A stretch of 64,000 nt of DNA from positions 16,350 through 80,349 of the forward strand of contig MEWP01000131.1 of the NCBI GenBank assembly GCA_001775395.1, given 5' to 3'. The number at the start of each line of letters is the position of its first letter. Position 1 is the stretch's first letter. Source of the DNA: a candidate division Zixibacteria bacterium RBG_16_53_22 (GTDB lineage: Bacteria > Zixibacteria > MSB-5A5 > UBA10806). The position numbers were made by a program, and so were the translations under genes. Under the pieces are notes generated by a model. It worked only from the letters and a program-made list of their open reading frames with translations, did not search any database and was not told the origin of the DNA. Below, piece by piece: positions 7,228 to 46,831 of the stretch.

Positions 7228-8216
7228 TAGAATCCCAATTTAAGGGCAAATAGATGCCCGTCCGACGTGCCGTGCTGACCTATCAAATATGCATACTCTA
7301 TGGCGGCCGACCGGTCCCCTTTGAGGTACGCCAGCGATCCCCCGAAAGTGGGGCTGCCCCGGTCGATTCCGATTCTCAGCCCGGCCCAACGCTTGTGCAT
7401 CTCGACCTCGTTAAACTTGCCCTCCTCGTATTCGTCCTCCACGAGTTGGATAACTTTCCTGGTGAACCAATATTCGGCGCCGGCCCTGAACAGCGTCCCG
7501 GTCTTGTCGCTTTTTTCGAAATCGACAGCCGGAATGACCCTGCCGTCAAGCAGATTGCCCGCCAGACCGAATTTGAATATCACCGGGTATTTCTCCTCGT
7601 AGGTTGTGCCATCGCCCCAATAAGCATTGGTGTCCCACCTGTAGGTGGAACCGAGGTTCTGAACCACACCGCCGAGCGAAATGAGCTCCCTGTAACGGAA
7701 TAAAAATCCGGCATCGACACCGATGGTGAAAACATCCAGCTCATCGAGCTTCTCCTGGAGATATCGCAGGCTGGCCCCGAGTGCGGCCGAACCATTGATC
7801 GCCTTGCCGAATGACAGAGTAAAAGCATTTTGATTGTTGTTGATATTGCCAATAATCTGCTGCGATGAGCCGCGGCCCACTATATCCGATACGCCGGCAT
7901 TGACCCAACTGGCGGCCATGACAGCCTCGCTCCTGATCGGAAATGAGATAGCGATGTGGCCGAGGTGCCGATCCAGCGAGAGGGCCTTATAGCTGAGACT
8001 GGTCCCCAGACGCATTTCGAATCCCAGCCCGGCGGGATTGAAGTAGGTGGCCTCGGGCCCCTCGGCAATTGCGGTGAAGGCCCCGCCCATCCCAAGCGGC
8101 CTGGCTCCGACTCCACTTCGCATGAAGGCGCCCGAATAGCCGGCGTCACCCTCACCGGCCATGGCGCAGGAGGCGGAAAACATAAGAACCGATATTATGC
8201 CAGCAAGTTTGTTCAT
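7227..8216 (-). CDS. PorV/PorQ-like (FadL-like) outer-membrane beta-barrel protein, T9SS-associated, paralog 1
   Basis: Signal peptide and GARPLGMGGAFTAIAEGPEATYFNPAGLG motif. The terminal F is typical of outer-membrane proteins. Its stop overlaps the start of paralog 2. Confidence 0.5.
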   Translation of the reverse strand: MNKLAGIISVLMFSASCAMAGEGDAGYSGAFMRSGVGARPLGMGGAFTAIAEGPEATYFNPAGLGFEMRLGTSLSYKALSLDRHLGHIAISFPIRSEAVMAASWVNAGVSDIVGRGSSQQIIGNINNNQNAFTLSFGKAINGSAALGASLRYLQEKLDELDVFTIGVDAGFLFRYRELISLGGVVQNLGSTYRWDTNAYWGDGTTYEEKYPVIFKFGLAGNLLDGRVIPAVDFEKSDKTGTLFRAGAEYWFTRKVIQLVEDEYEEGKFNEVEMHKRWAGLRIGIDRGSPTFGGSLAYLKGDRSAAIEYAYLIGQHGTSDGHLFALKLGF

Positions 8217-9715
8217 TTGATCACCACGACCTTTCCCCAGAGGTCCTCGCCGTAATCGAGCTCCACGCGGTAGAAATAAATCCCGTTGGCGACTATCTTT
8301 CCCTTATCATTGGTGCCGTCCCAGACAATGTCATCCGATTCAACGCCTCCGATTCTATCACGATCGACTGCAACCGTCTTTACCAACTCAAGATTGAAAT
8401 CGTAGATTTTCACCGATGCCCTGGTATTTCTATCCGGCCTGAAATGGACCGTCGAGCCTTTCCTGGTGGAATGATACGGAGAGAATGGGGATGGATAAGC
8501 ATAATGATTGGCAGGATCGAGTTGAGAGCGATATACCCGCCATTCTCCGTCAGATCGGCGCGCGGCGCCATCCGAGCCGCCGGCCCAGACGATATCACCG
8601 ACGACGTCGACTGCGTAAAATGGCGCGTTGTCCTGGTAAAAGGTCTGCCTTTGGGGATCACGGAGACCGGACAGAAGGGTCCAGGAGCTGTAATCGCCGT
8701 TAGATTGATAGAGCCCGAAACTGGTGGCGACATATACCGTATCGCCATTGAAGGCGAAATCCCAGGCCTCGACATCGGGATTATCCGATGGACCAATGAT
8801 ATTGGCTATATGCCAGGTCGCGCCGTCGTCCGTGGTGTAAGCCACTCGTCTCTCCTCCCCCGAAACGACTGCCCGACAAGCGGCCCATACCGTCTTGACA
8901 GTGTCGATCAAATTAATTCCCAGGGCCACCACGTGGTTTCCGGGAAGCTTGAGGGAATCGGGCAAAGTCGTGTCGGATACCGAGAAGGCGTACTGCTCGA
9001 TTGAATCCGGGTAAGTATGAAAGGCGCCAGTGATAGTATCGGCATAGAAGAAAAATCTATATATCCCCCTGGCGGCGCCGCCCCAAACCGAGAAGATATC
9101 CGGGAAATCGGTGGTATCCGTTTTGACAGAGAAAAAGCGATTGCCGAGGCTTCGAAATACGCTTCCATCAAAATCGGCGGAATCGGTGTTGACACTATCA
9201 AGCTGCGTGGGAAACAAGTTGGTCCAGGTGACACCCCAGTCCGTGGAACGGATGAGGCCGCCATAAAAGCAGGCGCCGAAAGCCAGCGAATCATGAAGCG
9301 ACAGGTCGTAGGCAAGCATGCCGACCCGGGTGGCCTGCATCGGCTGTCTATTAATCCAAACCGAATCGGGACGCCCCAAAAAGGAAATCCCATCTCCTTC
9401 GGGATACTCATCGCCCTGGAATTCGCGCGAGTGCGAGGTAGCGACCCAGACAGCCCGATCGTTGGCCGAGAGAGCCGAGACCTCGTCGGCCGCAAGGGGC
9501 TCGTGGCCATAGGTGGTCCAGGTAGCTCCACTGTCGCTGGTGGCTGAGGCGCCCCCGCCTGTGCCGAGCCAAATGGATGTGGAATCGTGGTCGATATCGA
9601 TTACGGAGTTGGATGTCATACCGGTCCGCCCGCCCTGGACAGTCATCTCGATTTCGGCATGCGCCAGGCCCACGAGGGAAAGCGGCAGGAATAAAGCGAG
9701 GAGTTTTCTCATCAC
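8213..9715 (-). CDS. Secreted BNR/Asp-box repeat protein with a T9SS C-terminal sorting domain (type A)
   Basis: Signal peptide and SxDxGxTW repeats (SDSGATWT, STDWGVTWT, TDDGATWH). The roughly 70-aa C-terminus (KIYDFNLELVKTV...GIYFYRVE...VVVIK) is typical of a Por secretion tail. Confidence 0.65.
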   Translation of the reverse strand: MMRKLLALFLPLSLVGLAHAEIEMTVQGGRTGMTSNSVIDIDHDSTSIWLGTGGGASATSDSGATWTTYGHEPLAADEVSALSANDRAVWVATSHSREFQGDEYPEGDGISFLGRPDSVWINRQPMQATRVGMLAYDLSLHDSLAFGACFYGGLIRSTDWGVTWTNLFPTQLDSVNTDSADFDGSVFRSLGNRFFSVKTDTTDFPDIFSVWGGAARGIYRFFFYADTITGAFHTYPDSIEQYAFSVSDTTLPDSLKLPGNHVVALGINLIDTVKTVWAACRAVVSGEERRVAYTTDDGATWHIANIIGPSDNPDVEAWDFAFNGDTVYVATSFGLYQSNGDYSSWTLLSGLRDPQRQTFYQDNAPFYAVDVVGDIVWAGGSDGAARRSDGEWRVYRSQLDPANHYAYPSPFSPYHSTRKGSTVHFRPDRNTRASVKIYDFNLELVKTVAVDRDRIGGVESDDIVWDGTNDKGKIVANGIYFYRVELDYGEDLWGKVVVIK

Positions 9716-9720
9716 GACCT

Positions 9721-29062: not shown

Positions 29063-29092
29063 TTATCGGAAAATCCCGAAAATGCTTGATAT
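29063..29092 (-). promoter_or_regulatory. Sigma-28 (FliA)-type promoter
   Basis: Minus strand TCAAGCAT-N11-TCCGATAA against the consensus TAAAGTTT-N11-GCCGATAA. About 250 nt upstream of the 28812 ORF and flgM-like genes. Confidence 0.4.
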
Positions 29093-29150
29093 GAAAATAT
29101 CGAAGCCAAAACCCGCTCGACGCGCCCCTAAATGACAAGATTCATGGAGG

Positions 29151-31544: not shown

Positions 31545-31918
31545 TCTCGCCTTCGCTTAATCTTCGAGAGAATAGCCGTGATTTTTTCGGAATCGCTGAT
31601 AATCGATTCCATGCTGCTTTCGATATCGTACAATATGCCGCCGTTGGAGAGCTTTTCTTCGCCGTCACCCGGCGCGCCCTTGCCTCTCTTATCCGCCCCC
31701 GCCGCCGACAGAACCTGGTTCATTTGCTTGACGGTCTGCGTGGCCTGGTTGACAAGTTGTGAGAGACGCTGGTTTAGCTCCACGCCGAGGTCCTGCCGAT
31801 GCGCGATCTTGGCTGCGGCCACGGCAATATTCAAAGCCAGAAGCTGTATCTCACCCGAGACGCTTTCGAGATATTTGAGGAGGTCCTCCTCACTGCGTTT
31901 TTTATCCATTATGCTCAA
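31541..31918 (-). CDS. Small protein with an MCP-signalling-domain-like segment
   Basis: IQLLALNIAVAAAKIA resembles the conserved MCP core [15 protein letters not shown]. 125 aa, with no sensor or HAMP region. Confidence 0.35.
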   Translation of the reverse strand: MSIMDKKRSEEDLLKYLESVSGEIQLLALNIAVAAAKIAHRQDLGVELNQRLSQLVNQATQTVKQMNQVLSAAGADKRGKGAPGDGEEKLSNGGILYDIESSMESIISDSEKITAILSKIKRRRD

Positions 31919-32286
31919 GGCGCCAAGAGCTCCTTGACCTGGGTCTTGAGTTCATCGAGATTGGGCGATTTTACCAGGTATGCATCGGCCAGCCACGACG
32001 TAAAATTGTTCTTATATGTCGAGTAAGCCGAATTCAGGATGACGGGAAGATCCGATTTCATGCCTCTCAGGCGCTCGAGAACCTGCAATCCATCCAAAAG
32101 CCCCATCTTGATGTCGAGGATGACGAGATCGACGCTGGTGTCGGCGCCGATGAACTGCAGCGCTTCCTCGCCGCTCGCGACTGAATGAGTCTTGTAACCC
32201 TCCCCCTCAAGCTCGCACTGATAGAGCGAGCGTATATCCTCCTCATCATCGACGATTAGAATATTTTTCATTTCTCCTCCGTGCAC
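31915..32286 (-). CDS. Response regulator, receiver domain only
   Basis: ILIVDDEED, LVILDIKMG and YLVKSP receiver motifs. Confidence 0.8.
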   Translation of the reverse strand: MHGGEMKNILIVDDEEDIRSLYQCELEGEGYKTHSVASGEEALQFIGADTSVDLVILDIKMGLLDGLQVLERLRGMKSDLPVILNSAYSTYKNNFTSWLADAYLVKSPNLDELKTQVKELLAP

Positions 32287-33989: not shown

Positions 33990-33991
33990 CG

Positions 33992-34873
33992 CTAATTCTT
34001 TCCCAGTCTCCCCTGGGTTTGCAGAAACAGCCTGTTTTCCGATTCCAACCTCAACGATAGGCTTCTGGGGTGGTCTGACTGCTGGGGAGTCAGCTTTTGA
34101 GTCATGGCCATGATGTTCGAGGCTTCCTTATCGATAGCTTTCAAGCGTTTTATTACCGACGGGCCGGAGCCTTTCATGGTCATCATCAAAAACTGCGCAT
34201 TGCCGGCGATAATGGCCAGGGGATTAGTGATTCTCTGGTTCAATGTGTTCGCCAGGTCCTCCCCGAATGGGGCTTTCTCTGCGCTTGGCCTTTTTTTCCT
34301 TTCGGTCTCCAGATCCGCCTTCAGCCGCTCAATTTCCTCCTGCATTGCAGTGGTCGCCTCCTGCGCCTTGATGCGCTCGATCAGCAATGCGATAACCGAG
34401 CCTGCCGCGGCCACGATCTGGGAATCGCGCTTGCGATACATATCGGGTTCGTCATGCGAGAGATTGATAATCCCGCACGTTTCCTTATTGAATATGATCG
34501 GGACAGACAGGAATGACCTCGTATGGGTCCCACCCTTCGATTTCCTGAGATTATTGAGCATTATGGGACGCTTATGTTTTGCGACCCAGGCCGAGATCCC
34601 GCTGCCAAGCTCGAAATTGACGAAATCGATTAGATCGGCTCGCCGGCCGATATTGCGGATTTCCTCCAGTTTGCCGGTCTGGCTGGAAAACATATAGATC
34701 GACGCGGAGCGAAAATCGATAATTTGCCCCAACAGCTTCAGGATTTCTTCCACGCGTTCCAGGGTGGCCCCGGATCTCTGCACCAAGGAGGAGATTTCGC
34801 TCAAGATCTCAATTTCCTGTTCCGGACTTATTGTGGGTATTCTGGATTCCCCCGACACATTACCTCCAATCAA
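33992..34873 (-). CDS. GAF domain protein with a His-less DHp-like segment (pseudo histidine kinase, no ATPase domain)
   Basis: GAF followed by a coiled coil, then QRITNPLAIIAGNAQFLMM. Gln occupies the H-box His position and no HATPase_c region follows. Confidence 0.55.
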   Translation of the reverse strand: MIGGNVSGESRIPTISPEQEIEILSEISSLVQRSGATLERVEEILKLLGQIIDFRSASIYMFSSQTGKLEEIRNIGRRADLIDFVNFELGSGISAWVAKHKRPIMLNNLRKSKGGTHTRSFLSVPIIFNKETCGIINLSHDEPDMYRKRDSQIVAAAGSVIALLIERIKAQEATTAMQEEIERLKADLETERKKRPSAEKAPFGEDLANTLNQRITNPLAIIAGNAQFLMMTMKGSGPSVIKRLKAIDKEASNIMAMTQKLTPQQSDHPRSLSLRLESENRLFLQTQGRLGKN

Positions 34874-35058
34874 ACAAGCATGTCTCTTTTATTATCTTTG
34901 AGAATTTGGGAAAATTCCTTCATCATCGGCATAAGCCAACCGGCGCGATATTTCCGGCTCTCCGGGCGGCGCAGAGCACCAGCCACAAGGCCCGCGGGTC
35001 GCAGCGACCAAGGATTTCATCGAGAAAAAAAGGGCCGCACTAATCGCCATGGCAGAAG

Positions 35059-35802
35059 TCATTTGGCGAGCAGGTCCTTTTTGCGAAGCTCCACTTGCTG
35101 ATTGTATATGAACTGCACAACCAGCTTTTGGAGATTTTCATCGAAAGTTCCCGCCCCGGGAGGCAGGAATTCATCAATTTGCCTGATGTCATGATCGCCG
35201 AAATTGCGCCGGGTGACAAATTCGGCCCCAATAAGATACCCTTTGGCCTTGGAACCCTCGCATCTCTTGATCACAGCCAGAATTCCGTCGAGAGTCTGGC
35301 GGCCTTTCAGGGTGAAACTCACGATAATGAATCCCCTTTCGGAAACTTTGACCGGGCTTTCGAAAAGCACCCCGCCGGCCGAGATATTGAGAAGCGTCCC
35401 CAGCAATTCAGGACCGGGGTTGTCCGCCCTGGCGGTATCCAGAGTCTTGAATTGCATTTTGCCCGAGAGGTCGAGCCTGACAAATTTCCGCCTCTGGGTA
35501 CGGTTGATATCCGAGGTTCTCTCGATTCTCATGGTCTTTTCATCACCATCGAAAAGGTCCAGGATGCTGGCCTTGAATGAATAGACGGCATCGCGCCTGC
35601 TGTATATCACTTCCACGGCATCTCCCTTGTGAAGATGATTTTGGCCGCTTTGCCTTAGCGGCATTTCGAGCACGTACGAGTCATGTTTGATATCCTCGAT
35701 CCGGCTGACGAATTCCGAGCGTTCTCCGAATTTCTCCAGCGCCAGCACTACCCTATCCCACAACCCCAGCGTTTCGCGAGTGGCCATAGAAGCTCTATGC
35801 AT
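35059..35802 (-). CDS. PilZ domain protein, YcgR-like (flagellar brake-type c-di-GMP receptor)
   Basis: RRKFVRL (RxxxR) and LNISAGGV (DxSxxG-type) PilZ motifs. The N-terminal domain is YcgR-N-like. Confidence 0.7.
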   Translation of the reverse strand: MHRASMATRETLGLWDRVVLALEKFGERSEFVSRIEDIKHDSYVLEMPLRQSGQNHLHKGDAVEVIYSRRDAVYSFKASILDLFDGDEKTMRIERTSDINRTQRRKFVRLDLSGKMQFKTLDTARADNPGPELLGTLLNISAGGVLFESPVKVSERGFIIVSFTLKGRQTLDGILAVIKRCEGSKAKGYLIGAEFVTRRNFGDHDIRQIDEFLPPGAGTFDENLQKLVVQFIYNQQVELRKKDLLAK

Positions 35803-36002
35803 GGGCCGCCTCGATATAACGACCGTGGTTAATATGGAAAGATGCGCTTGCGCCTTGAGATTTATGAAGCAATGTGGTTACGCGAAAAAATGCCGGCAGG
35901 ATTTCGGTAATTATTCCTGCTGAAAATCGAAACATCATCTGATTTTTCCCCTCATGCCCGGTAAGACAGTCCGTATAGCATCCCTACTATCGGCAAGGCT
36001 GT

Positions 36003-36395
36003 TTAATCCTGAATCAGGCGCGACGTTTCATCCTGCAACGTCATTTGTCGCGCTCGCCGCGCCGAGGCCACCAGGACGCCTAACTCCGACCGCGAAAATC
36101 CGAATTCCTCGCCCACAGCCTCGGGCCGGGCGCCGCTCTCGAGCCTGGCCAATGCCAACTTTACTTTGGCGCTGTAGTCGGGCTCGCGCGAAACGGATGA
36201 CGTTGGCGTCGCTCCATCGGATTTAGCCGATACTGCCGGGATTCCTTCCGCCGGAATCGCCGACGAATGTCCGACAATTGCGGCGTTCTCGGGGAATTCT
36301 CCTCGGCGCTTGTCGATAAACACAAGAAATACCAGCACGGCCACCAGGACCGCATTGGACAGGGCCATTATCGTCAATATCGTTGCTCCGCTCAT
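36003..36395 (-). CDS. Small membrane protein with a possible C-terminal HTH
   Basis: N-terminal transmembrane helix. The C-terminal ARPEAVGEEFGFSRSELGVLVASARR resembles an HTH. Lies directly downstream of fliA. Confidence 0.35.
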   Translation of the reverse strand: MSGATILTIMALSNAVLVAVLVFLVFIDKRRGEFPENAAIVGHSSAIPAEGIPAVSAKSDGATPTSSVSREPDYSAKVKLALARLESGARPEAVGEEFGFSRSELGVLVASARRARQMTLQDETSRLIQD

Positions 36396-36469
36396 AGAAT
36401 CTCCTGAAGATGCCTTGAAATCATTTTCGTCGCCTTGCTGTCTTCTTGATTCGTCTTCCTCGCCGGCGA

Positions 36470-37228
36470 TCAGATGGCGAATTTATCCCTGATCATGCCG
36501 CGCAGACGGGTTACTGCCCTGGTATGTATCTGTGAAACACGCGATTCGGAAATCAGCATGATCTCCCCGATCTCCTTCAGGGTCAACTCCTCATAGTAAT
36601 AGAGGGATATGACGAGCCTTTCCTGCTCGCTGAGACCGCTGATAGCGTGAATCAGAAATACTCTCAATTCCGTCTTCTCCATGTCGTCGAGTACATCAAC
36701 CGAAGTCGAATTTTCGATAGTCTCGATGCGCGGCACCTGCCGGTTATCGTCCTCGCGGCAGATTAGCTCATCGAGCGAAAGCAGAGTTGTGACACTGACG
36801 TCTTTCATCGCGTATCGTAGCTCCTCCGCCGATATGCTCAATGTCCTGGCAAGCTCTGTATCCGAAGGTCCCCGCCCCAGTTCCGCCTCGAGCTTGCTTA
36901 CGGCTTTTTCGATATTTCTGGCTTTAGCCCTGGTCGAACGCGGTACCCAATCGAGGGCTCTCAATTCATCGAGTATGGCGCCGCGGATTCTCGGCACGGC
37001 AAAGGTCTCGAATTTCACTCCGCGGCCGGGGTCAAAATTGTTGAAGGCCTCGATGAGGCCGATGACTCCCGTATTAATCAAGTCATTTAGCTCGACCGAT
37101 TTTGGAAACCCCGCCGCCATTCTGCCCGCCACGTTCTTGACGAGAGGCAGATAGTCCGATAACAGCTTGGTCCGCATATCGGAATTGTTGGTTTCTTTGA
37201 ATCTCGCCCACGTTGCTAAATTGGCCAT
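36470..37228 (-). CDS. fliA: RNA polymerase sigma factor FliA (sigma-28)
   Basis: Regions 2 and 4 of a sigma-28 (LISESRVSQIHTRAV.., YYYEELTLKEIG). The start is set at MANLATWARF; the longer ORF in the track runs through the flhG-like stop. Confidence 0.85.
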   Translation of the reverse strand: MANLATWARFKETNNSDMRTKLLSDYLPLVKNVAGRMAAGFPKSVELNDLINTGVIGLIEAFNNFDPGRGVKFETFAVPRIRGAILDELRALDWVPRSTRAKARNIEKAVSKLEAELGRGPSDTELARTLSISAEELRYAMKDVSVTTLLSLDELICREDDNRQVPRIETIENSTSVDVLDDMEKTELRVFLIHAISGLSEQERLVISLYYYEELTLKEIGEIMLISESRVSQIHTRAVTRLRGMIRDKFAI

Positions 37229-37265
37229 AACCCCGTCCTGTTTAATTATTGATATATCCCTGTTA

Positions 37266-38027
37266 TTATCGTCCCACTTTAGCGGACACTCGAAATGCCG
37301 GCTCCATCGCCTCGGCCGCCGTTTCACTCTGCAACATGGCGATAGCCGCCAGGTCCAGATGCTGTATTGAATCGACCTCGAAATCGCGGCCTGGATTGAC
37401 GCGCCGAATGAATCCACAGTTTTGAATCCTGGCTACGGGAATTTGCCCGGCCAGGATATCGAGGCGGGCCTTGACCGAAGCCGCTTGTTCAACTGAATCG
37501 ACAAATGAGGTGACAGCACCGACATTGGAAGCAATGCCCTCGTCGTTCAGCGACTTCAAGAGACGGCATGACGAAGCCACCGAGATTGAATCGGGCCTGG
37601 TGAAGAGCATTATCCGATCGCTCGATCCGGCGGCGAGTAACGACAGCGGATGGCCTCCCGAGGGCGGGTCGAGAATCAGAAAATCATATTTCTCCGAGAG
37701 CGAGCCTGTTAGCCATACCAACTTCTTGAGATCATCAAGCGACGGATCCAATACCGGCGGGGGAAGACATGTAAGGACATCGAAACCCGGCTCGGCTGAA
37801 ACGACAGCATCTTCGATCCGGTCATCCGCATCGAGAAGAGCCGAATATGAAATAGCCTCCTGTCCACCGAGTCCAAGTCCGCCCCACCCGAAGCAGAGGT
37901 CGAAAAGAAGCACTCTCTGCTCCAGGCCCGCGAGATATCGCGCCAGGCCGACACCGACCGTAGTCCGACCCGTTCCGCCGGCCCCCGAAATGAGAGCGAG
38001 CGTCTTTGCCCGCGGACTTACCGGCAT
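37266..38027 (-). CDS. MinD/ParA-family (FlhG/FleN-like) protein with a degenerate Walker A
   Basis: ISGAGGTGRTT sits where the deviant Walker A KGGxGKT should be; the signature Lys is Ala and the second Lys is Arg. It lies immediately upstream of fliA. Confidence 0.6.
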   Translation of the reverse strand: MPVSPRAKTLALISGAGGTGRTTVGVGLARYLAGLEQRVLLFDLCFGWGGLGLGGQEAISYSALLDADDRIEDAVVSAEPGFDVLTCLPPPVLDPSLDDLKKLVWLTGSLSEKYDFLILDPPSGGHPLSLLAAGSSDRIMLFTRPDSISVASSCRLLKSLNDEGIASNVGAVTSFVDSVEQAASVKARLDILAGQIPVARIQNCGFIRRVNPGRDFEVDSIQHLDLAAIAMLQSETAAEAMEPAFRVSAKVGR

Positions 38028-38578
38028 CTCGTTACCTCAATCGAGGGCGCCACTTCATATTCGGTGCTCTTTTTCGAAATCGGGAAAACTGCCAATTCTC
38101 GAAGGACTGACAGCTTTGATATCCCCGATATTTTGCAGAATGAGAATCGATATGAAAATCGCATCCATGATTGGCGCCAGGCCGCAATCCGTCCGGCGGC
38201 TGGCATTAGGACTGGGAAGTATTTTTCGAATTTCCCGGCTGAAAAATCAACTGACGACATTAACCATCTCCATTCGGAACCAATTGGAGCAAGGCCCATG
38301 CCGCCGGCTCGCCCGAATGACGACTTGTGCAAGCTGTTATTTCTTAGTGAATTATGCTGATGATCGAAATTTAGACAGCGAGATTAAAAACGCCTCTGGG
38401 AAAATACTGCCCAATCTCTGTTCAATTTTTTCCTATCGGAACAGAACGGTGATTATTCCGAGGTTTGCGCGGGCAAGAGCCGTTATGCCAGTTATCATCA
38501 TATCCAACCGCGCCATAACTGCTATTATGAATCGGAACTTTATGGGGATTCGCGGCTGTGGATTCTTGGCTATCGATT

Positions 38579-39835
38579 CTAATGTCGCCAGGTCTTCTTG
38601 GCGCCCCTGCCATTACCGTCAAATTTGCCTGTGAGGCTGCGAATTGTCAAGTCGCCATCGATATGAGTCAGTTTGTCATCGAATACTCTCACTTCGGGAA
38701 TTTTTATATTAGCTCCTTCAGGGTTGATCTTCATATCGAGCGGACGAGAACTCAGAGTATTGCAGACATCACGATCGACAGCGTTCATCGATATTGAAAT
38801 GCTAAGTTTCCCGGGGCTTAACCTGATATCCGGCGAGACGGGCTCCTCCGGTTCGAGCATGAATTTCAGTGCCTTGACATTGCTCTCCATCGCCGTCAGG
38901 AGGATTTCCTTCATTTCGTCTATCCTGGCCTGTCGGATGTTGCCTTTTTCAGTGGAATCGAAAGGCGCTTGTCTGACATTGATCCGCTTTGAGCCGTATT
39001 GGTCGGGCGCCACGGCCATCTCGTATTTTCCGCCGGCGTTAGCATGCTTTAGAAAAATAGCTCTTTGCCTGATTCGGGATCTCGGCTTGAGCTTGAGTCC
39101 CGTCGCGACATATATCAGCCACCGGGGAAATTGAGATATCAGCACACCCCTGATGACTCTTGGCCCGGCGGTTACGGGCATGTCGTCTTTGAACAGGTCT
39201 CTTAAATCAAACGCAAGAATCGTGATCGGATTTTGAACCATAGGATTAATATCAGGCAATTCATCAATTGAAGGGCGAGGGAATATGGTCTGTTCGATAT
39301 TACCAATCTCAAGCAGGATTGGTATTGGATAATGCGAGACCATTTTCCTTAACAGCTTGACGCTGATAGTGCCGTATTTCAAACATCCCGCGGAATCAGC
39401 GACGTAAATCTGTATGCGGCCCTCGGATTTTGGATGCTTGCAAATGTCCCGGATCTTGAAAGTTACGACCTTGCCGCCATTTGTCACCTTTGAATATTCA
39501 TTTGGCCCGAGGGCTTTCATGTCCTCATGGCTATAATCCAGTTCACTCCCATTTTCAGGTGGCGCTTTGATACTGACGGTATTATTTGAGTTTGCCAGCG
39601 CCATATGAATTAAATCGGCATTCAGATGAATTTGCTCTTTCGACTCAATTGGGCAGGCACACCTTGGATGGACGTTCGGCGGAAATTCGCAATTCTGCGC
39701 TTCGAACATGAACGGCTCGATTCTCGACTGCAATGTCAAATCATGATAATCGTGTACAGGCGCAATCTGCATTTGAAACGGTTCATCCGTTAGGGCCGCG
39801 ATAGGCGGAGTCGGAATTTCGGGCACGCTATTCAT
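38579..39835 (-). CDS. Hypothetical 418-aa protein at the position usually occupied by flhF
   Basis: Long ORF with no P-loop and no recognisable domain. Confidence 0.45.
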   Translation of the reverse strand: MNSVPEIPTPPIAALTDEPFQMQIAPVHDYHDLTLQSRIEPFMFEAQNCEFPPNVHPRCACPIESKEQIHLNADLIHMALANSNNTVSIKAPPENGSELDYSHEDMKALGPNEYSKVTNGGKVVTFKIRDICKHPKSEGRIQIYVADSAGCLKYGTISVKLLRKMVSHYPIPILLEIGNIEQTIFPRPSIDELPDINPMVQNPITILAFDLRDLFKDDMPVTAGPRVIRGVLISQFPRWLIYVATGLKLKPRSRIRQRAIFLKHANAGGKYEMAVAPDQYGSKRINVRQAPFDSTEKGNIRQARIDEMKEILLTAMESNVKALKFMLEPEEPVSPDIRLSPGKLSISISMNAVDRDVCNTLSSRPLDMKINPEGANIKIPEVRVFDDKLTHIDGDLTIRSLTGKFDGNGRGAKKTWRH

Positions 39836-40122: not shown

Positions 40123-43100
40123 ATGAATTATCCATTAATCACAGGAGAACTTATGCGCAGGAACGCAATCGCGGTGGTGGCATTGTTGCTCATTCTGACC
40201 TCGAATGCCATAGCCGGCACGCTCGTAACCCCTCTCGACGAGATGGTTGCCTCGGCCGATCCCAACCGGAAAATCGGGGTCGTTGTCGCCATGGCCGATA
40301 TGGTAGACAATAAAATTCTGAATGAAAGCCTCAAGAGCCGGTCGGCGACCTTTGCGGAACGTCATTACGAAGTTATCACCACCCTCCAGGCCAAGGCAAC
40401 TTCAACGCAGAGTCAGGTTCTAGACCTTCTAAATGATCTGGAGGCCCGGGGAAAGGCCGAGAAAATCCGAAACTTCTGGATTTCCAACATGATCTCCTTC
40501 GAGGGAACACCGGATGCTATCAGGCAGATCGCTGATCGAAGCGATGTCGACAAGGTCTATTTCGATTTCCCGGTCGAAAATATCGAGCCGTTCCGCGGTG
40601 GCGATGCGCCTCCCATGATTACCAGCCACACAAACGGCCTCGATGTCATCCATGCCCCGCAGGTTTGGGCCATGGGATACACCGGCGCCGGGCGAATCGT
40701 CTCCAATATCGATACCGGCGTTGACGGCACTCACCCGGCCCTTTCCGCCCGCTGGCGAGGCAATAACGGCCATCCGGCAAGCGAATGCTGGAAGGACCCC
40801 GTCCAGAATACGCCTACGCCCACCGATGATGGCCAACACGGCACGCACACCATGGGCACAATCTGCGGCCGCAGCACAACCACTTACGACACAGTCGGCG
40901 TAGCCATCAATGCCCAATGGATTGCCGCGGGAGCGATCGACGATGGTTCGACTATCGCTCAAATTATCGAATGTTTCCAGTGGATTGCCGATCCCGACGG
41001 CAATCCCGGCACCACCTCCGATGTCCCCGATGCAGTAGGTAATTCATGGGGATGGTCGCCGATCTATCATGGCGTGCCGCCTTGTGATGACACATTCTGG
41101 TCGGCCATCGATGGCTGTGAGAACGCCGGCGTAGTGGTTATATTCTCTGCCGGCAACGAGGGGCCAGGCGCCAATACGCTTCGCACGCCCGCCGACCGGG
41201 CCACCACTTATTACAATGCCTTCTCGGTTGGCGCAATTGACGGCCACGCGGCCGGATACCCTATCGCCTCCTTCTCTTCTCGAGGCCCCTGCTCATGCGC
41301 CACGGGCGATATGGCGATCAAGCCCGAGTGCGTGGCGCCCGGTGTTGATGTCTACAGCTCGATTCCGGGCGGCGGTTACGATGGCACCTGGGATGGCACC
41401 TCGATGGCCTCGCCCCATATTACCGGCTCTGTGGCTATAATCAGGCAGGTCAATCCCAATCTAGATGTCGATACTATCAAGGACATAATCCTGCAATCGT
41501 GCGTGGATCTTCCTGCCCCCGGCAACGGCGAGGACAATACCTATGGACACGGCGTCTTAAATCTCCAAACCGCGGTTCAACTTGCCATGACCGGATTCGG
41601 CTTTGCGGATGGCTATGTCAGGGACGCCGGGACCTCGGCGCCTTTGCCGGCCACAGTGTCGGTCGTTGGCGCGGCCAATCAGGTTAATGCCAACGGCTCG
41701 GGTTATTATATAATGGGACTGGCGGCTGATACGACCTATACTCTCAGGGCTTCGTATTTCGGATATACCCCTCTGGATCATAGCGCAGCCATACTGCCCA
41801 ACGACACAACGTCACAAAATTTCCTGCTGTCGCCGGCGCCATCGGCCATCCTTCAAGGGAATGTGACCGACAGCGCAGGAGCCCCGATCGCCGGGGCTAT
41901 CGTCACGGTCTTGAATACGCCCATTATTCCCGATACGACCGATGCCAGCGGATTCTATCAATTCCCGGCCATACCCACAGGTTCTGTTTACCAGGTAGGC
42001 GCTACCGCCCCCAGCCACAGCTTCGATCGAGATTCCATATTGATTCAAAGCGGCACCAACATTTTGAATTTTGTCCTCTATTCGGTTGAATCGTTCGAAT
42101 ACAGCAATGGAGGCTACATAGGCACCGGTGTCTGGCAATGGGGCGTGCCGACTGCCGGCCCGCCCGGAGCCCATTCGGGGACCAAAGTCTGGGGCACGGT
42201 CTTGAATGGTGAGTATCCAGATAATGTGGACGATAATCTCATCAGCAGCAATTTCGTGATCAGCGCTCCCAACTCGCGTCTGGAATTCTGGCATTGGTAT
42301 TCGATGGAATCGACCTGGGATGGCGGAAACGTCTCGATATCGACCAACGGCGGCGCCACCTGGAGTTTGATCACCCCCCTGACCGGCTATCCCGATCAAA
42401 GCGTCTACGCATTAGACGATCAACCGGGATTTAGCGGCTCCAACGGCGCCTGGTCGTTAGTCAGGTTCAATTTGAACAGCTACGTGGGACAGACAGTCAA
42501 GATTCGCTGGCGGTTTTCGTCGGACGGATTGATAACGGATTACGGATGGTATATCGACGACGTTGCCATATATGTGCCCGATCCACCCAATATCACTTAC
42601 AATCCGACATCCTACAGTGTCCAGGCGGCGCCGGGCCAGATCGAAATCAGGAGCCTCAATATCGGCAATACCGGTCCCGGGTCCCTCGATTACTATCTGT
42701 CGACCATAACAAATAATCTAATCCTGAACGACGGCCGGTCGGTCCCATTCAATATCACCGCCCTTAAACCAAAGCCGATCGATTACGTTTCCATCGAAAC
42801 AAAATCGGGCATTGTCACGCAGCCGATTTACCCGCCGGTGATAGCCGGCAGCGGCGGCCCCGATACCTACGGGCACTACTGGATCGATTCCGACGAACCG
42901 GGCGGCCCGCCGGCGACATATGTCGATATTTCCGGCGTAGGAACTCCGATATCCCTGAGCGATGACAATTACCTGGGTCCGTTTTCAATCGGATTCAGTT
43001 TCCCCTATTTCGAAAACAACTACACTCAGCTCTATATCTGCTCCAATGGGTATGTTTCCTTTGGAAACGGCTATAACTCAAATGACTTTGTCGGCATACC

Positions 43101-44577
43101 CAGCACCGGTACGCCCAACAACTTTGTTGCCGCGCTCTGGGAGGATGTTAACCCCGGCGCGGGCGGCACGGTTCGATACTACTACGATTCCGCCAATCAG
43201 CGATTCATTGTCAGCTTCGACGACGTGCCATACTGGCTTTATGGCGGCAGCCTCGATTTCCAAATGGTCCTTTATGCCAACGGCAAGATCGAGATGAATT
43301 ATGGGACGCTCAGTCCGGGATCGCACAATTTAAATACCTGCACGGTGGGGATCGAAAACGCCGGCGGCACGGACGGCCTCCAAATCTCCTATAATTCGGC
43401 ATACCTCCACAGCAACCTCAGCATCAGAATCTCAGCCTCATGGCTTTCCGCGGAGCCATCGAGCGGCAACGTGGCGCCGGGCGGGAATGCCTCGCCGACA
43501 ATTACATTCGACGCCAGGAATCTCGTAATTGGCACGTATACCGGCAATATCAACCTCGATTCGAACGACCCGGACACTCCCAATATCGATATTCCCGTAA
43601 CGTTCATTGTCGGCGCCGGCGGAACGCCGAATATAGTCGTAATCCCGGGCGCAGTCGGAGATACATTGGTCCAGGGCCAGTCGGCCGTGCATACTCTCAA
43701 AATCAAGAACACCGGGACCGGGACCCTGGGAATCACTTTCGCCGATTCAGCAGCCTGGCTGAGTGTTCCCGCCGGGTCGTATTTCATATCTCCCGGCGAC
43801 AGCATTTTCAGCAATATTACACTTAACGCCACGGGCTTGACGCCGGGTACTTATTCCGGCAGAGTCTGGGTGAACTCAAACGATCCCGACCAGCCGGCTC
43901 TTAATGTTCCGGTCACATTGCTTGTGATTCCAGTCGGCGCGCCGGAGATAAACCTGTCCAGAACCGCTTTTGTCGACACCGTCTTGGAGGGCAATTCGAT
44001 TGCCCGATATTTGTATATCACCAATAGCGGCACCGCGACTCTCCTCTATGGCGTGCACGACAATCGCGCCTGGATAACTGCTGCCCCCGATACGGGCAAT
44101 GTGCCGGTATCGTCGACCGACACTATAACGGTTACATTCAGCGCCGCGGCTTTGACACCGGGAACGTATGCCGGCCAGGTAAATGTCAATTCAAACGACG
44201 CCGATGAAAGTTCGACGATATTGCCGGTAACGCTTCTTGTAATGCAGTCAAGCGCCGGATGCAGCTACGCGGCGGGCGATATCAACAGCGATGGGACCGC
44301 AAACGGCCTCGATGTTACTTATGGTGTGTCATTCCTCAAGGGTGGCGCCGCACCACCGGATACCTGTTTTGATTGCCCCGTTATCGATGAAGATCTCTTG
44401 GCGGCCGGCGATGTCAATGGCAGTTGCGGCTTTAACGGCATAGATATCACATTTTTCGTCGCCTATCTTAAAGGGTTGCAGCCGGGACTGCTTTATTGCC
44501 CCGACTGCCCTCCGGCAAGCACCGAGGCCCCGGCCATAATTAAACATGAGTCGCAGGCAAAGGCGATCGCCAGATAA
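40123..44577 (+). CDS. Secreted S8 (subtilisin-like) serine peptidase, 1484 aa, with a beta-rich middle region and a dockerin-like C-terminus
   Basis: Signal peptide and catalytic triad (SNIDTGVD, HGTHTMGTI, GTSMASPHITG). The C-terminal GDINSDGTANGLD and GDVNGSCGFNGID loops match dockerin-type Ca-binding motifs. Confidence 0.85.
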   Translation: MNYPLITGELMRRNAIAVVALLLILTSNAIAGTLVTPLDEMVASADPNRKIGVVVAMADMVDNKILNESLKSRSATFAERHYEVITTLQAKATSTQSQVLDLLNDLEARGKAEKIRNFWISNMISFEGTPDAIRQIADRSDVDKVYFDFPVENIEPFRGGDAPPMITSHTNGLDVIHAPQVWAMGYTGAGRIVSNIDTGVDGTHPALSARWRGNNGHPASECWKDPVQNTPTPTDDGQHGTHTMGTICGRSTTTYDTVGVAINAQWIAAGAIDDGSTIAQIIECFQWIADPDGNPGTTSDVPDAVGNSWGWSPIYHGVPPCDDTFWSAIDGCENAGVVVIFSAGNEGPGANTLRTPADRATTYYNAFSVGAIDGHAAGYPIASFSSRGPCSCATGDMAIKPECVAPGVDVYSSIPGGGYDGTWDGTSMASPHITGSVAIIRQVNPNLDVDTIKDIILQSCVDLPAPGNGEDNTYGHGVLNLQTAVQLAMTGFGFADGYVRDAGTSAPLPATVSVVGAANQVNANGSGYYIMGLAADTTYTLRASYFGYTPLDHSAAILPNDTTSQNFLLSPAPSAILQGNVTDSAGAPIAGAIVTVLNTPIIPDTTDASGFYQFPAIPTGSVYQVGATAPSHSFDRDSILIQSGTNILNFVLYSVESFEYSNGGYIGTGVWQWGVPTAGPPGAHSGTKVWGTVLNGEYPDNVDDNLISSNFVISAPNSRLEFWHWYSMESTWDGGNVSISTNGGATWSLITPLTGYPDQSVYALDDQPGFSGSNGAWSLVRFNLNSYVGQTVKIRWRFSSDGLITDYGWYIDDVAIYVPDPPNITYNPTSYSVQAAPGQIEIRSLNIGNTGPGSLDYYLSTITNNLILNDGRSVPFNITALKPKPIDYVSIETKSGIVTQPIYPPVIAGSGGPDTYGHYWIDSDEPGGPPATYVDISGVGTPISLSDDNYLGPFSIGFSFPYFENNYTQLYICSNGYVSFGNGYNSNDFVGIPSTGTPNNFVAALWEDVNPGAGGTVRYYYDSANQRFIVSFDDVPYWLYGGSLDFQMVLYANGKIEMNYGTLSPGSHNLNTCTVGIENAGGTDGLQISYNSAYLHSNLSIRISASWLSAEPSSGNVAPGGNASPTITFDARNLVIGTYTGNINLDSNDPDTPNIDIPVTFIVGAGGTPNIVVIPGAVGDTLVQGQSAVHTLKIKNTGTGTLGITFADSAAWLSVPAGSYFISPGDSIFSNITLNATGLTPGTYSGRVWVNSNDPDQPALNVPVTLLVIPVGAPEINLSRTAFVDTVLEGNSIARYLYITNSGTATLLYGVHDNRAWITAAPDTGNVPVSSTDTITVTFSAAALTPGTYAGQVNVNSNDADESSTILPVTLLVMQSSAGCSYAAGDINSDGTANGLDVTYGVSFLKGGAAPPDTCFDCPVIDEDLLAAGDVNGSCGFNGIDITFFVAYLKGLQPGLLYCPDCPPASTEAPAIIKHESQAKAIAR

Positions 44578-44596
44578 GATACATGCATCCGCACAA

Positions 44597-44626
44597 AGCC
44601 CCCTTCCGGTGAAGGGGGCTTTTTTG
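44597..44626 (+). terminator. Rho-independent terminator
   Basis: agccccctt-ccggtg-aagggggct followed by tttttt. It lies 20 nt after the S8 peptidase stop. Confidence 0.7.
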
Positions 44627-45741: not shown

Positions 45742-46831
45742 TCACTCCCTGTGTGATAAGTAAGCATGTATGAAATTATCAATCTCGCCGTCCATGACGG
45801 CGTTAACGTTCGATGTTTCATATTCGGTGCGATGGTCTTTCACCATCGTATATGGCTGAAAAACATATGACCTGATTTGCGAACCCCATTCGATTTTCTT
45901 CTTAGAGGCCTCAATCGTGGCCATCTTGGCCCGCTCCTCTTCCAAAGCCTTCTGGTAGAGCCTTGCCCGCAGGACTTTCACGGCCGATTCGCGGTTCTTG
46001 TGCTGAGAGCGTTCGGTCTGACACTGGACCACGATTCCGGTCGGGATATGGGTGATTCTGACCGCGGATGATGTCTTGTTGACATGTTGCCCCCCGGCGC
46101 CGGAGGCCCTGAAGGTATCGATTTTCAGGTCGTCGGGTTTGATTTCGATATTGATATCTTCATCGGTTTCAGGGTAGATGAAGACAGACGCGAATGAAGT
46201 ATGCCGGCGCTTGTTGGCGTCGAACGGCGAAATCCTCACGAGGCGGTGGACGCCTGATTCCGATTTGAGGTACCCGTAAGCGTGCGGGCCCTTGATTTCG
46301 AGCGTGGCCGACTTGATGCCGGCCTCGTCACCGGCCTGATAATCCATCATGTCTGTTTGGAAGCCGTGATTTTCGGCCCAGCGAAGATACATGCGCAGGA
46401 GCATGCTGGCCCAATCCTGCGACTCGGTCCCACCGGCGCCGGGATGGATCGCCAATATGGCATCCTTGGCATCCTCCTCGTTCGAGAGGAAACTCTGGAA
46501 TTCGAAATCATCCAGCTTCCGGGCGATCGCGCCCAGATGAGAGCCGATTTCCTGGCGAAGCTCCGTATCGCCATCGGCCTGCGACAGACCGAGCAACTCG
46601 GAGGTTTCCTCGATCTCCTTTTGAAGCGCTTCCCAGTCGGCGACAGTTTTTCTGGTTGTATTGAGCTTTTTTAAGATCGCCTGAGCTTTCTGGTTGTCGG
46701 CCCAGAAATTGGCGCCCTGCGTCTCCTTCTCGAGGTCGGCGGCCTCGCTGCGGAGTCGGTCTATCTCAAAGATACCCCCGAAGTTTATCTAAACGCGATT
46801 TGAGCTCATTGACATCGACGGTAGTTTCCAT
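45742..46831 (-). CDS. prfB: Peptide chain release factor 2 (programmed +1 frameshift at about 46768)
   Basis: Frame 0 reads METTVDVNELKSRLDKLRGYL then TGA, within CGGGGGTATCTTTGAG (internal SD plus CUU UGA). The +1 frame continues through GGQ (SGAGGQHVNKT) to 45742. Confidence 0.9.

What the first reader, a model, noticed from the sequence alone, without database searches (positions are those of the whole stretch)
44260..44480. Dockerin-like twin Ca-binding repeats at the C-terminus of a 1484-aa S8 subtilase in a T9SS-bearing organism
The last ~70 residues hold two 12-residue loops, D-I-N-S-D-G-T-A-N-G-L-D and D-V-N-G-S-C-G-F-N-G-I-D. These fit the dockerin/EF-hand-like Ca-binding pattern (positions 1, 3, 5, 9, 12), each followed by a hydrophobic helix (VTYGVSFLKG / ITFFVAYLKG). 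The same window encodes a T9SS cargo with a canonical CTD, yet this very large protease uses a dockerin-type module instead. That suggests cohesin-like anchoring, or an alternative cell-surface attachment route for this protein.
Basis: partly seen in the sequence, partly recalled or inferred. Interest (0 to 1): 0.5.

Follow-up and report, generated by a model that had tools for sequence, protein, structure and literature searches.

The report
Disulfide-stapled dockerin on a Zixibacteria protease
The tail of this giant secreted protease is a genuine but unusual, cysteine-rich dockerin (a calcium-dependent protein "plug") that Zixibacteria attach to many secreted enzymes, probably to hang them on the cell surface, although the matching "socket" is only tentatively identified.

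Summary

The module defines a large subfamily, seen so far in Zixibacteria, with 4-6 conserved cysteines (three inferred disulfides). It tags S8, C25 and M14 peptidases, a phosphodiesterase-like protein, a cupredoxin and others. It also occurs N-terminally, internally and in tandem, which argues for a binding module rather than a secretion signal.

Homologous proteases carry this module, a T9SS CTD or an IPTL-CTERM tail at the same position. No canonical cohesin was found.

A ~168-aa domain "X" is a candidate receptor, but this is unproven. It has only a weak cohesin-like N-terminal motif. It occurs as X+T9SS-CTD, X+dockerin and dockerin-X-dockerin proteins, and three X-CTD genes cluster with dockerin genes.

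Verdict: a new variant of a known kind, of moderate interest.

The parts
40123..44577 (+). CDS of the multidomain secreted S8 protease. It is 1484 aa from the first ATG. The deposited annotation starts at M11 (40153) and gives 1474 aa.
40153..40218 (+). Sec-type signal peptide (MRRNAIAVVALLLILTSNAIA|G).
   Evidence: Read directly from the translation. Inferred; no predictor was run.
40684..41553 (+). Peptidase S8 catalytic domain. The triad motifs are intact: D197 in SNIDTGVD, H239 in HGTHTMG and S427 in GTSMASPH.
   Evidence: Pfam PF00082, E 4e-43; motif positions.
41611..42078 (+). Two carboxypeptidase-regulatory-like beta-sandwich domains.
   Evidence: PF13715 and PF13620.
42199..42576 (+). 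InhA-like MAM / choice-of-anchor-J-like domain.
   Evidence: PF20773, E 4e-13. NF038128 scored 28.4 bits, just under its cut-off.
43666..44220 (+). Ig-like domains (HYDIN/VesB-like, BACON_2, DUF1573, choice-of-anchor-D-like) immediately before the dockerin.
44260..44514 (+). Cysteine-rich dockerin module, residues C1380-P1464. This is the feature under study.
44278..44313 (+). Ca-binding loop 1, DINSDGTANGLD (ligand positions 1, 3, 5, 9, 12 = D, N, D, N, D).
   Evidence: Family conservation: D 228/231, N 229/231, D 231/231.
44305..44337 (+). Helix 1 (residues 1395-1405, GLDVTYGVSFL).
   Evidence: DSSP on the AF2 model.
44338..44409 (+). Linker KGGAAPPDTCFDCPVIDEDLLAAG, carrying the conserved C1415 and the subtype-specific C1418.
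44410..44445 (+). Ca-binding loop 2, DVNGSCGFNGID, with the conserved C1435 at loop position 6.
44437..44469 (+). Helix 2 (residues 1439-1449, GIDITFFVAYL).
44497..44514 (+). C-terminal C-P-D-C-P-P (C1459, C1462). These cysteines are the inferred disulfide partners of C1435 and C1418.
   Evidence: Presence/absence covariation across 231 modules.
44515..44577 (+). Variable 20-residue tail (ASTEAPAIIKHESQAKAIAR) and the stop codon. It has no transmembrane or sorting motif.
   Evidence: The median tail after the module in the family is 19 residues.
44595..44622 (+). Intrinsic-terminator-like hairpin (12-bp stem followed by a T-run). The gene looks monocistronic.
8213..9715 (-). Context only: a 500-aa protein with a T9SS-type C-terminal domain.

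Best explanation
Residues 1380-1464 are a true dockerin: a duplicated EF-hand-like Ca2+ loop plus helix, with the type I dockerin fold. It belongs to a subfamily, seen here only in Zixibacteria, that is reinforced by two or three disulfides. In this protein the inferred pairs are C1380-C1415, C1435-C1459 and C1418-C1462.

Proposed mechanism:
1. The protease is exported by Sec through its signal peptide.
2. The module folds and oxidises outside the cytoplasm and binds two Ca2+ ions.
3. It then acts as a non-covalent plug that docks the protease onto a receptor protein on the cell surface. This gives a non-cellulosomal, mainly proteolytic 'dockerin secretome'.
4. The most likely receptor is the ~168-aa domain X. 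X is displayed by small or medium proteins anchored through a T9SS CTD or an IPTL-CTERM tail, and it also sits in dockerin-X-dockerin adaptor proteins. X may be a very divergent cohesin.

Shown: the motif, homology to dockerins, the predicted fold, modular use on many secreted proteins, alternation with CTD or IPTL-CTERM in homologous proteases, and the X architectures and gene clustering.

Inferred: Ca2+ binding, the disulfides, binding to X, surface location, and the route across the outer membrane.
For: Homology to dockerin:
- 24 of 28 module sequences hit Pfam Dockerin_1 at E<=1 (best 5e-8), and no other family recurs comparably (at most 3 of 28 members).
- Paralogous carriers pass the gathering cut-off, at 28.3 and 30.0 bits and 40-44 bits.
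- The A3 profile against PDB sequences returns 20 hits, all dockerins. The best is 4fl4_A, E 2.7e-4, spanning both repeats.

Fold:
- The AF2 model has pLDDT 87.5 and pTM 0.79, with helices at 18-28 and 62-72.
- All 29 Foldseek hits against the PDB are dockerins.

Family size and position:
- 3485 cluster representatives match at E<=1e-3 and 1425 at E<=1e-10.
- 208 of 210 carriers end within 60 residues of the module.
- 23 of 210 carriers have 2-3 modules, including copies directly after the signal peptide and internal copies.
- Module-only 110-aa proteins occur in tandem.

Cargo: S8, C25 (P0201, which shares the A2W25_ locus-tag prefix of this window's MAG), M14 x2, cupredoxin, Omp28-like and phosphodiesterase-like proteins, beta-helix, FG-GAP and LVIVD proteins.

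Positional equivalence with anchors:
- Homologous S8 proteases end in this module, in a T9SS CTD or in an IPTL-CTERM-type tail.
- One genome has the dockerin-type and CTD-type paralogs 5 kb apart, with PorV nearby.

Disulfides: cysteine presence/absence covaries in pairs. C56/C80 are both present in 226 modules and both absent in 5. C39/C83 are both present in 169, both absent in 56 and mixed in 6.

Candidate receptor X:
- Architectures seen are SP-X-CTD (P0318, P0319, L026), SP-X-IPTL-CTERM (P0315), SP-X-Doc, Doc-X-Doc, Doc-X-Doc-X-Doc and S8...X-X-Doc.
- In chromosome CP070742.1, three consecutive X...CTD genes lie within 7 kb of three genes with dockerin matches.
- Cohesin is the only Pfam family hit by more than one X sequence: 5 of 42, best E 0.0035.

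Precedent: in Cloacimonadota 'Ca. Stygibacter', S8 and C25 peptidases with C-terminal dockerins were reported together with a cohesin scaffoldin that carries a T9SS CTD (PMC8542988).
Against: - This copy is below Pfam's gathering score, and NCBIfam has no model for it.
- No canonical cohesin was detected. Only about 550 kb around dockerin genes could be screened, and only with a single-sequence phmmer.
- X's resemblance to cohesin is weak and confined to the first ~35 residues. hhalign gave 27-46% probability, and the X profile had no PDB hit. X could instead be a CBM or an X-module.
- This window's protease has no X domain, and no X gene lies in the 64 kb.
- The fold rests on a predicted model. 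A first prediction with a poorer alignment failed (pLDDT 54).
- How a CTD-less 1484-aa protein crosses the outer membrane is unexplained.
Confidence: 0.6

Rival explanations
1. Orphan dockerin-fold module with no cohesin-type partner. In this reading it is a Ca2+- and disulfide-stabilised C-terminal cap that stabilises large extracellular proteins or binds a non-protein ligand, such as a cell-envelope glycan, LPS or the substrate.
For: - No canonical cohesin was found.
- Dockerin-like modules without detectable cohesins are widespread (Peer et al. 2009; seen here only in reference lists; the content is from my own knowledge).
- Heavy disulfide stapling fits a stability role.
- Module-only small proteins exist.
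Against: - The helix faces are strongly conserved across hundreds of unrelated carriers (T21, Y22, V24, Y26, F27, K28, G29 and the equivalent positions in repeat 2). This suggests one shared partner.
- The domain grammar of X (X+anchor, X+Doc, Doc-X-Doc, enzyme+Doc) and the clustering of X-CTD genes with dockerin genes mimic scaffoldin systems.
- Tandem, N-terminal and internal copies are hard to explain as a cap.
Confidence: 0.25
2. A C-terminal secretion or sorting signal: either a divergent T9SS CTD (type B) or the tag of a so far unknown outer-membrane export or anchoring pathway, recognised and possibly removed by dedicated machinery.
For: - The module is nearly always at the extreme C-terminus (208 of 210 carriers).
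- It occupies the same slot as a T9SS CTD or IPTL-CTERM in homologous proteases.
- The carriers are the kinds of proteins that are T9SS cargo elsewhere, such as C25 gingipain-like peptidases and beta-helix, FG-GAP and LVIVD proteins.
Against: - The predicted fold is a helical EF-hand pair, not the beta-sandwich of T9SS CTDs.
- There is no match to CTD models or to a lineage-specific CTD profile.
- Copies occur right after the signal peptide, internally and in tandem, and there are poly-dockerin proteins.
- The tail after the module is variable and carries no conserved motif.
Confidence: 0.07
3. A chance EF-hand-like motif in a low-complexity tail, with no biological unit behind it.
For: The Pfam score of this single copy is sub-threshold.
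Against: - 41 close homologs of the tail alone were found, with E down to 9e-37.
- Thousands of family members exist.
- 13 columns are invariant in the module alignment A3.
- The structural model is confident.
- The loop pattern is unique in the 64-kb six-frame translation.
Confidence: 0.01

Closest known systems
Type I dockerins of clostridial cellulosomes (Pfam PF00404; for example C. thermocellum Doc435 in 4dh2, Cel9 dockerin in 4fl4, Xyn10B dockerin in 1ohz/2ccl)
   Same: - Two ~22-residue repeats, each a 12-residue D-x-N-x-D-...-D Ca loop followed by a helix.
- A C-terminal position on secreted enzymes.
- Near-identical repeats 1 and 2, as in dual-binding-mode dockerins.
   Different: - 4-6 conserved cysteines, giving 2-3 inferred disulfides.
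- Gly conserved at loop position 10 in both repeats (203 and 223 of 231 modules) where clostridial dockerins have the Ser-Thr recognition pair.
- A conserved K-G-G-x-P-P helix cap and a C-P-D-C-P-P end.
- A longer linker.
- A diderm host with T9SS.
- Cargo is mainly peptidases and non-CAZyme surface proteins.
- No canonical cohesin has been identified.
Cellulosome-like system inferred in Cloacimonadota 'Ca. Stygibacter' (Front Microbiol 2021, PMC8542988)
   Same: - A candidate-phylum bacterium, studied from MAGs, that is described as using a T9SS CTD for surface attachment.
- Signal-peptide-bearing S8 and C25 peptidases with C-terminal dockerins.
- A scaffold proposed to be attached to the cell through a T9SS CTD.
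   Different: - There, a 3755-aa scaffoldin with InterPro-detectable tandem cohesins and CBMs was found. Here no detectable cohesin was found, only the X domain with a faint cohesin-like N-terminus.
- Glycoside hydrolases were not prominent among the carriers sampled here.
- Whether the Stygibacter dockerins share the cysteine pattern was not checked.
T9SS C-terminal domains (type A PF18962/TIGR04183; type B PF13585/TIGR04131)
   Same: - The same position in the protein.
- The same kinds of cargo.
- Literally interchangeable with the dockerin in homologous Zixibacterial S8 proteases.
   Different: - Unrelated fold and sequence.
- A CTD is a secretion and attachment signal processed by PorU.
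- The dockerin also occurs N-terminally and in tandem.
Stabilised dockerins: the intramolecular clasp of the R. flavefaciens ScaA dockerin (PMC3821032) and X-module-dockerin dyads of type II/III systems
   Same: - The idea that flanking segments or a neighbouring module stabilise the small dockerin fold.
- X often lies directly upstream of the dockerin.
   Different: - Here the stabilisation would be covalent, through disulfides pinning both flanks to the linker and loop 2 (inferred).
- X also occurs without any dockerin, fused to a T9SS CTD or IPTL-CTERM. A pure stabiliser would not be expected to do that.

Membership tests
Dockerin type I (Pfam PF00404) | Tandem duplicated segment: a 12-residue Ca-binding loop with ligands at positions 1, 3, 5, 9 and 12, followed by a helix. 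| tested here: met
   The loops are D-I-N-S-D-G-T-A-N-G-L-D and D-V-N-G-S-C-G-F-N-G-I-D. The ligand columns are >=98% conserved at positions 1, 3 and 12 across 231 modules.
Dockerin type I (Pfam PF00404) | Score at or above Pfam's gathering cut-off (22.9 bits). | tested here: not met
   This copy scores 14.0 bits in the full protein, and 20.1 and 21.0 bits as an isolated tail, covering profile positions 1-56 of 57. Paralogous copies of the same subfamily do pass: 28.3 and 30.0 bits and 40-44 bits. 24 of 28 members hit at E<=1.
Dockerin type I (Pfam PF00404) | Three-dimensional dockerin fold. | tested here: met
Dockerin type I (Pfam PF00404) | Binds Ca2+ and needs it to fold. | not testable with these tools
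   Only inferred from the conserved ligand positions.
Cohesin-dockerin system | A cohesin partner encoded in the same genome and bound by the dockerin. | tested here: inconclusive
   The window genome could not be searched as a whole. phmmer with a CipA cohesin against about 530 kb flanking dockerin genes and against all fetched proteins gave only spurious short hits. The candidate domain X gives weak Cohesin hits: 5 of 42 members, best E 0.0035, with hhalign probability 27-46% and no PDB hit.
Cellulosome | Dockerin-bearing carbohydrate-active enzymes assembled on a multi-cohesin scaffoldin with a CBM. | tested here: not met
   The carriers sampled are peptidases (S8, C25, M14, M23), phosphodiesterase-like, cupredoxin, beta-helix, FG-GAP and LVIVD proteins. 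No glycoside hydrolase family appeared among the 25 most frequent families (of 42 matched) in the carrier census. No scaffoldin was found.
T9SS CTD type A (PF18962 / TIGR04183) | A C-terminal ~80-residue beta-sandwich matching the CTD models. | tested here: not met
   There was no CTD hit at E<=1 in Pfam or NCBIfam. A profile built from 60 Zixibacterial protease CTDs hits ORF 8216-9772 in the window but not this protein, even at E<=10 with filters off.
T9SS CTD type B (PF13585 / TIGR04131) | A match to the type B CTD models. | tested here: not met
   The only family reported for the tail at E<=1 is Dockerin_1. The predicted fold is helical.
Peptidase S8 (subtilase) | S8 catalytic domain with the Asp-His-Ser triad. 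| tested here: met
   PF00082, E 4e-43, full-length match. The motifs SNIDTGVD, HGTHTMG and GTSMASPH are present.

The most novel reading that the evidence does not exclude
Zixibacteria run a previously undescribed surface-assembly system.
- A disulfide-stapled dockerin tags a whole set of proteases and other exoproteins.
- Its receptor is not a canonical cohesin but the new ~168-aa X domain.
- X is displayed by T9SS-CTD- or IPTL-CTERM-anchored proteins and is chained by dockerin-X-dockerin adaptors.

In the boldest version, CTD-less dockerin cargo binds X-CTD proteins in the periplasm and rides through the T9SS with them ('hitch-hiking'). That would explain how a 1484-aa protein without a CTD gets out.
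Probability: 0.2. Interest if true: 0.75.

Novelty: new variant of a known kind. Interest (0 to 1): 0.55.

Why it matters
Dockerins are best known from Gram-positive cellulosomes. Here a distinct, cysteine-stapled dockerin subfamily has thousands of cluster representatives and is mostly missed by the precomputed Pfam annotation on record. It is the common tag of a proteolytic and surface secretome in an uncultured diderm phylum that also uses T9SS. It is interchangeable with T9SS and IPTL-CTERM anchors in otherwise homologous proteases.

If the X domain is the receptor, three things would follow:
- Cohesin-dockerin-type assembly would be linked to T9SS surface anchoring.
- Zixibacteria would be shown to organise extracellular protein degradation in sediments through such assemblies.
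- A naturally disulfide-stabilised, Ca-dependent docking pair would become available for protein engineering.

If no receptor exists, the finding adds a large, well-defined case to the open question of what 'orphan' dockerins do.

Tried and rejected
- Exact look-ups of the window protein, of P0042 and of P0201 in the contig index found no record. The rest of the RBG_16_53_22 genome could therefore not be inspected.
- AF2 with alignment A2 (whole short proteins) gave pLDDT 54 and a meaningless beta model. Only the trimmed alignment A3 worked.
The single-protein scan found only 7 loci, all Zixibacteria, so taxonomic breadth beyond this phylum is untested.
- The afdb50 fold library was unavailable.
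- The untrimmed A2 profile against the PDB gave only insignificant dockerin hits.
- Cohesin hunt: phmmer with CipA cohesin 7 against all ORFs of 91 sequences (530 kb) and against all fetched proteins gave only a 28-residue spurious match in L049 and faint N-terminal matches in X. Pfam on L049 gave nothing.
- X profiles against PDB sequences: A6 returned insignificant CBM4 hits and A7 returned nothing.
- hhalign of X against one or three cohesins gave 27-46% probability over 17-33 columns. That is not enough to call X a cohesin.
- Literature: no paper in the searched library holds Zixibacteria together with dockerin, cohesin or type IX secretion. The searches for disulfide-containing dockerins and for Latescibacteria were uninformative.
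- The neighbouring genes are housekeeping, flagellar or regulatory (Pta, RF2, sigma factor, PilZ) and give no functional link.
- Zn-binding by the CxxC...CxxC pairs was considered. It is thought less likely than disulfides because the module is extracytoplasmic and the second cysteine of each pair is absent together in about a quarter of modules (56 of 231). It is not excluded.
Full report
**1. What is there**

The + strand ORF 40123..44577 encodes a 1484-aa protein. It is 100% identical to a deposited hypothetical protein of candidate division Zixibacteria bacterium RBG_16_53_22. That annotation starts at M11 and gives 1474 aa (P0042).

The domain order is:
- a Sec-type signal peptide;
- a complete S8 subtilase domain (PF00082, E 4e-43) with intact D197, H239 and S427 motifs;
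- two carboxypeptidase-regulatory-like domains;
- an InhA-like MAM domain;
- a NIDO-like region (NIDO is on record for homologs, not this copy);
- three Ig-like domains.

The gene looks monocistronic. It has a weak promoter-like site upstream and a 12-bp-stem terminator at 44595-44622. Its neighbours are housekeeping, flagellar or regulatory genes.

**2. The observation**

Each is followed by the quoted amphipathic segment. A regex for this loop type matches nowhere else in the six-frame translation of the 64 kb.

The conserved unit is slightly larger than reported. It runs from C1380 to P1464 (44260-44514) and is followed by a variable 20-residue tail.

**3. Is it a dockerin?**

Sequence evidence:
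- On its own this copy is sub-threshold for Pfam Dockerin_1: 20.1-21.0 bits against a cut-off of 22.9, although it aligns to profile positions 1-56 of 57.
- NCBIfam has nothing for it.
- The tail has many clear homologs, 41 with E down to 9e-37. None of them carries a precomputed Dockerin_1 annotation.
- A trimmed alignment of 28 modules (A3) shows 13 invariant columns, including four cysteines.
- 24 of the 28 members hit Dockerin_1 at E<=1 (best 5e-8), and no other family recurs comparably (at most 3 of 28 members).
- The A3 profile against all PDB sequences returns 20 hits, every one a dockerin. The best is 4fl4_A at E 2.7e-4 across both repeats.

Structural evidence:
- AF2 with A3 gave a confident model (pLDDT 87.5, pTM 0.79) with a helix after each loop.
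- All 29 Foldseek hits are dockerins.

I therefore regard dockerin homology and fold as established, with the caveat that the structure is predicted.

There is no CTD hit at E<=1. A profile built from 60 Zixibacterial protease CTDs picks out ORF 8216-9772(-) in the window at E 4e-11 but does not touch this protein.

**4. What is special about it**

An exhaustive profile search finds 3485 cluster representatives at E<=1e-3 and 1425 at E<=1e-10.

In 231 non-redundant modules the Ca-ligand positions 1, 3 and 12 of both loops are at least 98% conserved. Position 10 is Gly in both repeats, and each helix ends in K-G-G.

Four cysteines are near-universal (profile positions 2, 37, 56 and 80). A further pair (positions 39 and 83) defines the 'C-x-C ... 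C-P-D-C-P-P' subtype, to which the window copy belongs.

Presence and absence covary pairwise:
- Positions 56 and 80: both present in 226 modules, both absent in 5, never mixed.
- Positions 39 and 83: both present in 169, both absent in 56, mixed in 6.
- Position 2 is never present without position 37.

From this I infer three disulfides: C1380-C1415, C1435-C1459 and C1418-C1462. These would pin both flanks to the linker and loop 2. This is inference. The sequences are phylogenetically related, and Zn binding by the CxxC pairs is not excluded. I am not aware of cysteine-stapled bacterial dockerins in the literature (own knowledge), and a text search did not turn any up.

**5. How the module is used**

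Distribution in genomes:
- All seven genome loci found are Zixibacteria MAGs, six of them in a single genome.
- The carriers there are two adjacent M14 carboxypeptidases, a 1889-aa C25 gingipain-like peptidase, a cupredoxin, an Omp28-like protein, a phosphodiesterase-like protein and NIDO/MAM proteins.
- P0201, which shares the A2W25_ locus-tag prefix of the window's MAG, is another C25 peptidase with the module.
- A census of 81 further carriers adds beta-helix, LVIVD, FG-GAP, PKD and BNR proteins.

Position in the protein:
- The module is C-terminal in 208 of 210 carriers.
- 23 of 210 carriers have two or three copies, often one right after the signal peptide and one at the end, or internal copies.
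- There are 110-aa proteins that are only a signal peptide plus the module, encoded in tandem.
- One 720-aa protein consists of tandem dockerin-like repeats.

These facts argue against a C-terminal secretion signal and for a binding module.

Alternation with anchors:
- The closest homologs of the protease end either in this module, in a T9SS CTD (PF18962...KKMVMLK), or in a tail of the form PTLSEWGM-hydrophobic stretch-RRR. That tail is annotated PF18203 and matches the IPTL-CTERM sorting motif as I know it.
- In genome GCA_037441845.1 a dockerin-type S8 (P0050) and a CTD-type S8 (P0101) lie 5 kb apart, with a PorV gene 5 kb upstream.

So the dockerin occupies the slot that surface-anchoring signals occupy in paralogs, in a lineage that has T9SS.

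**6. The partner**

The whole genome could not be searched.

A single-sequence cohesin search was run with CipA cohesin 7, after verifying that query against 1aoh. It covered about 530 kb around dockerin genes plus all fetched proteins. It gave nothing convincing.

It did draw attention to a conserved ~168-aa domain, here called X, that lies between the two dockerins of ~390-aa Doc-X-Doc proteins.

Architectures of X:
- SP-X-T9SS CTD (P0318, P0319, L026 154-984);
- SP-X-IPTL-CTERM (P0315);
- SP-X-Doc (P0313, L080);
- Doc-X-Doc and Doc-X-Doc-X-Doc (P0163);
- S8...X-X-Doc (P0065-P0073).

In the 3.74-Mb chromosome CP070742.1, three consecutive genes each have an N-terminal X and a C-terminal T9SS CTD. 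They sit within 7 kb of three genes with dockerin matches.

This grammar (receptor plus anchor, receptor plus dockerin adaptor, enzyme plus dockerin) is that of anchoring scaffoldins, adaptor scaffoldins and enzymes in cellulosomes.

Whether X is a cohesin is unresolved:
- Cohesin is the only Pfam family hit by more than one X sequence (5 of 42, best E 0.0035). The hits always cover only the first strands, around the 'PGDTVxIPVwV' motif.
- hhalign gives 27-46% probability over 17-33 columns.
- The X profile finds nothing in the PDB.

X could instead be a CBM or a dockerin-stabilising X-module. The dockerin-less X-CTD proteins speak against the X-module reading.

The window protein itself has no X domain, and the window encodes none.

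**7. Comparison with what is known**

The closest mechanistic precedent is the cellulosome-like system inferred for Cloacimonadota 'Ca. Stygibacter'. There, S8 and C25 peptidases and GH18 and GH57 enzymes carry C-terminal dockerins, and a 3755-aa cohesin scaffoldin carries a T9SS CTD (PMC8542988).

No paper in the searchable library links Zixibacteria with dockerin, cohesin or T9SS.

**8. Verdict**

- The dockerin reading is supported.
- The T9SS-CTD alternative is refuted.
- The 'cohesin-like anchoring' is plausible and now has a concrete candidate, but it is unproven.

I file the module as a new variant (cysteine-stapled, mainly on peptidases and other non-CAZyme surface proteins, in a diderm with T9SS) of a known kind (type I dockerin).

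My confidence:
- It is a dockerin-fold Ca-binding module: about 0.95.
- It mediates non-covalent docking to a surface receptor: about 0.6.
- X is that receptor: about 0.35.

How the CTD-less protease crosses the outer membrane remains open.

Noticed in passing
window 45742-46830 (-), shift site CTT TGA at 46771-46766: The release factor 2 gene shows the classic programmed +1 frameshift. A short ORF (METTVDVNELKSRLDKLRGYL*) ends in GGGGG TAT CTT TGA G, and the PCRF/RF-1 domains continue in the +1 frame (ORF 45742-46596 has PF03462 and PF00472).
   Followed up: partly
window 27078-38027: A run of flagellar and regulatory genes: HDOD protein (27078-28013), FlgN (29695-30297), GAF histidine-kinase-like proteins, a PilZ/YcgR-like protein (35059-35802), a sigma-70-family factor (36470-37417) and a MinD/ParA-like P-loop protein (37266-38027). 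This suggests the Zixibacterium is flagellated.
   Followed up: partly
window 38579-39835 (-) and 37471-38634 (+): The 418-aa ORF divergent from the protease gene has no Pfam or NCBIfam match and no signal peptide. The nearby 387-aa + strand ORF, which overlaps its 3' end by about 55 bp, also has no match. Which of the two, if either, is a real gene was not resolved.
   Followed up: no
L091 5425-10861 (+) and 11259-17113 (-) (CP070742.1 1379349-1400212): Three consecutive genes each have an N-terminal X domain and a C-terminal T9SS CTD (739, 734 and 291 aa). They lie next to three genes with Cys-dockerin matches. This may be a scaffoldin-like gene cluster.
   Followed up: partly
P0184 (720 aa, JGI metagenome) and P0183 (1187 aa): P0184 consists almost entirely of tandem Cys-bounded dockerin-like modules of a related subtype (CGDVNSD..IN..D...L..YMF.GGP.P ... 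DL.YLV.Y...GGPAP.C), giving 14 matched half-repeats. P0183 also shows 14 matched stretches, but its sequence was not inspected. The function of a poly-dockerin protein is unclear.
   Followed up: no
L001 9615-9947 and 10001-10333: Two tandem 110-aa genes encode only a signal peptide plus one Cys-dockerin module (P0006 and its neighbour), in a 1.9-Mb contig. Free dockerins might be competitors or regulators of docking.
   Followed up: no
P0099, P0105; P0102, P0108, P0112, P0113, P0122: Other homologous S8 proteases end in further tail types. One is a second dockerin-like variant (...DLNYLAVYLFAGGPPPCGG...). The other is a conserved unknown tail (...APYNQPPYAPDGDTA..CTVT...AP). The protease family therefore samples at least five different C-terminal modules.
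   Followed up: no
L002 1000-6252: Two adjacent M14 carboxypeptidase genes (993 and 747 aa) in one Zixibacteria MAG both end in the Cys-dockerin.
   Followed up: partly
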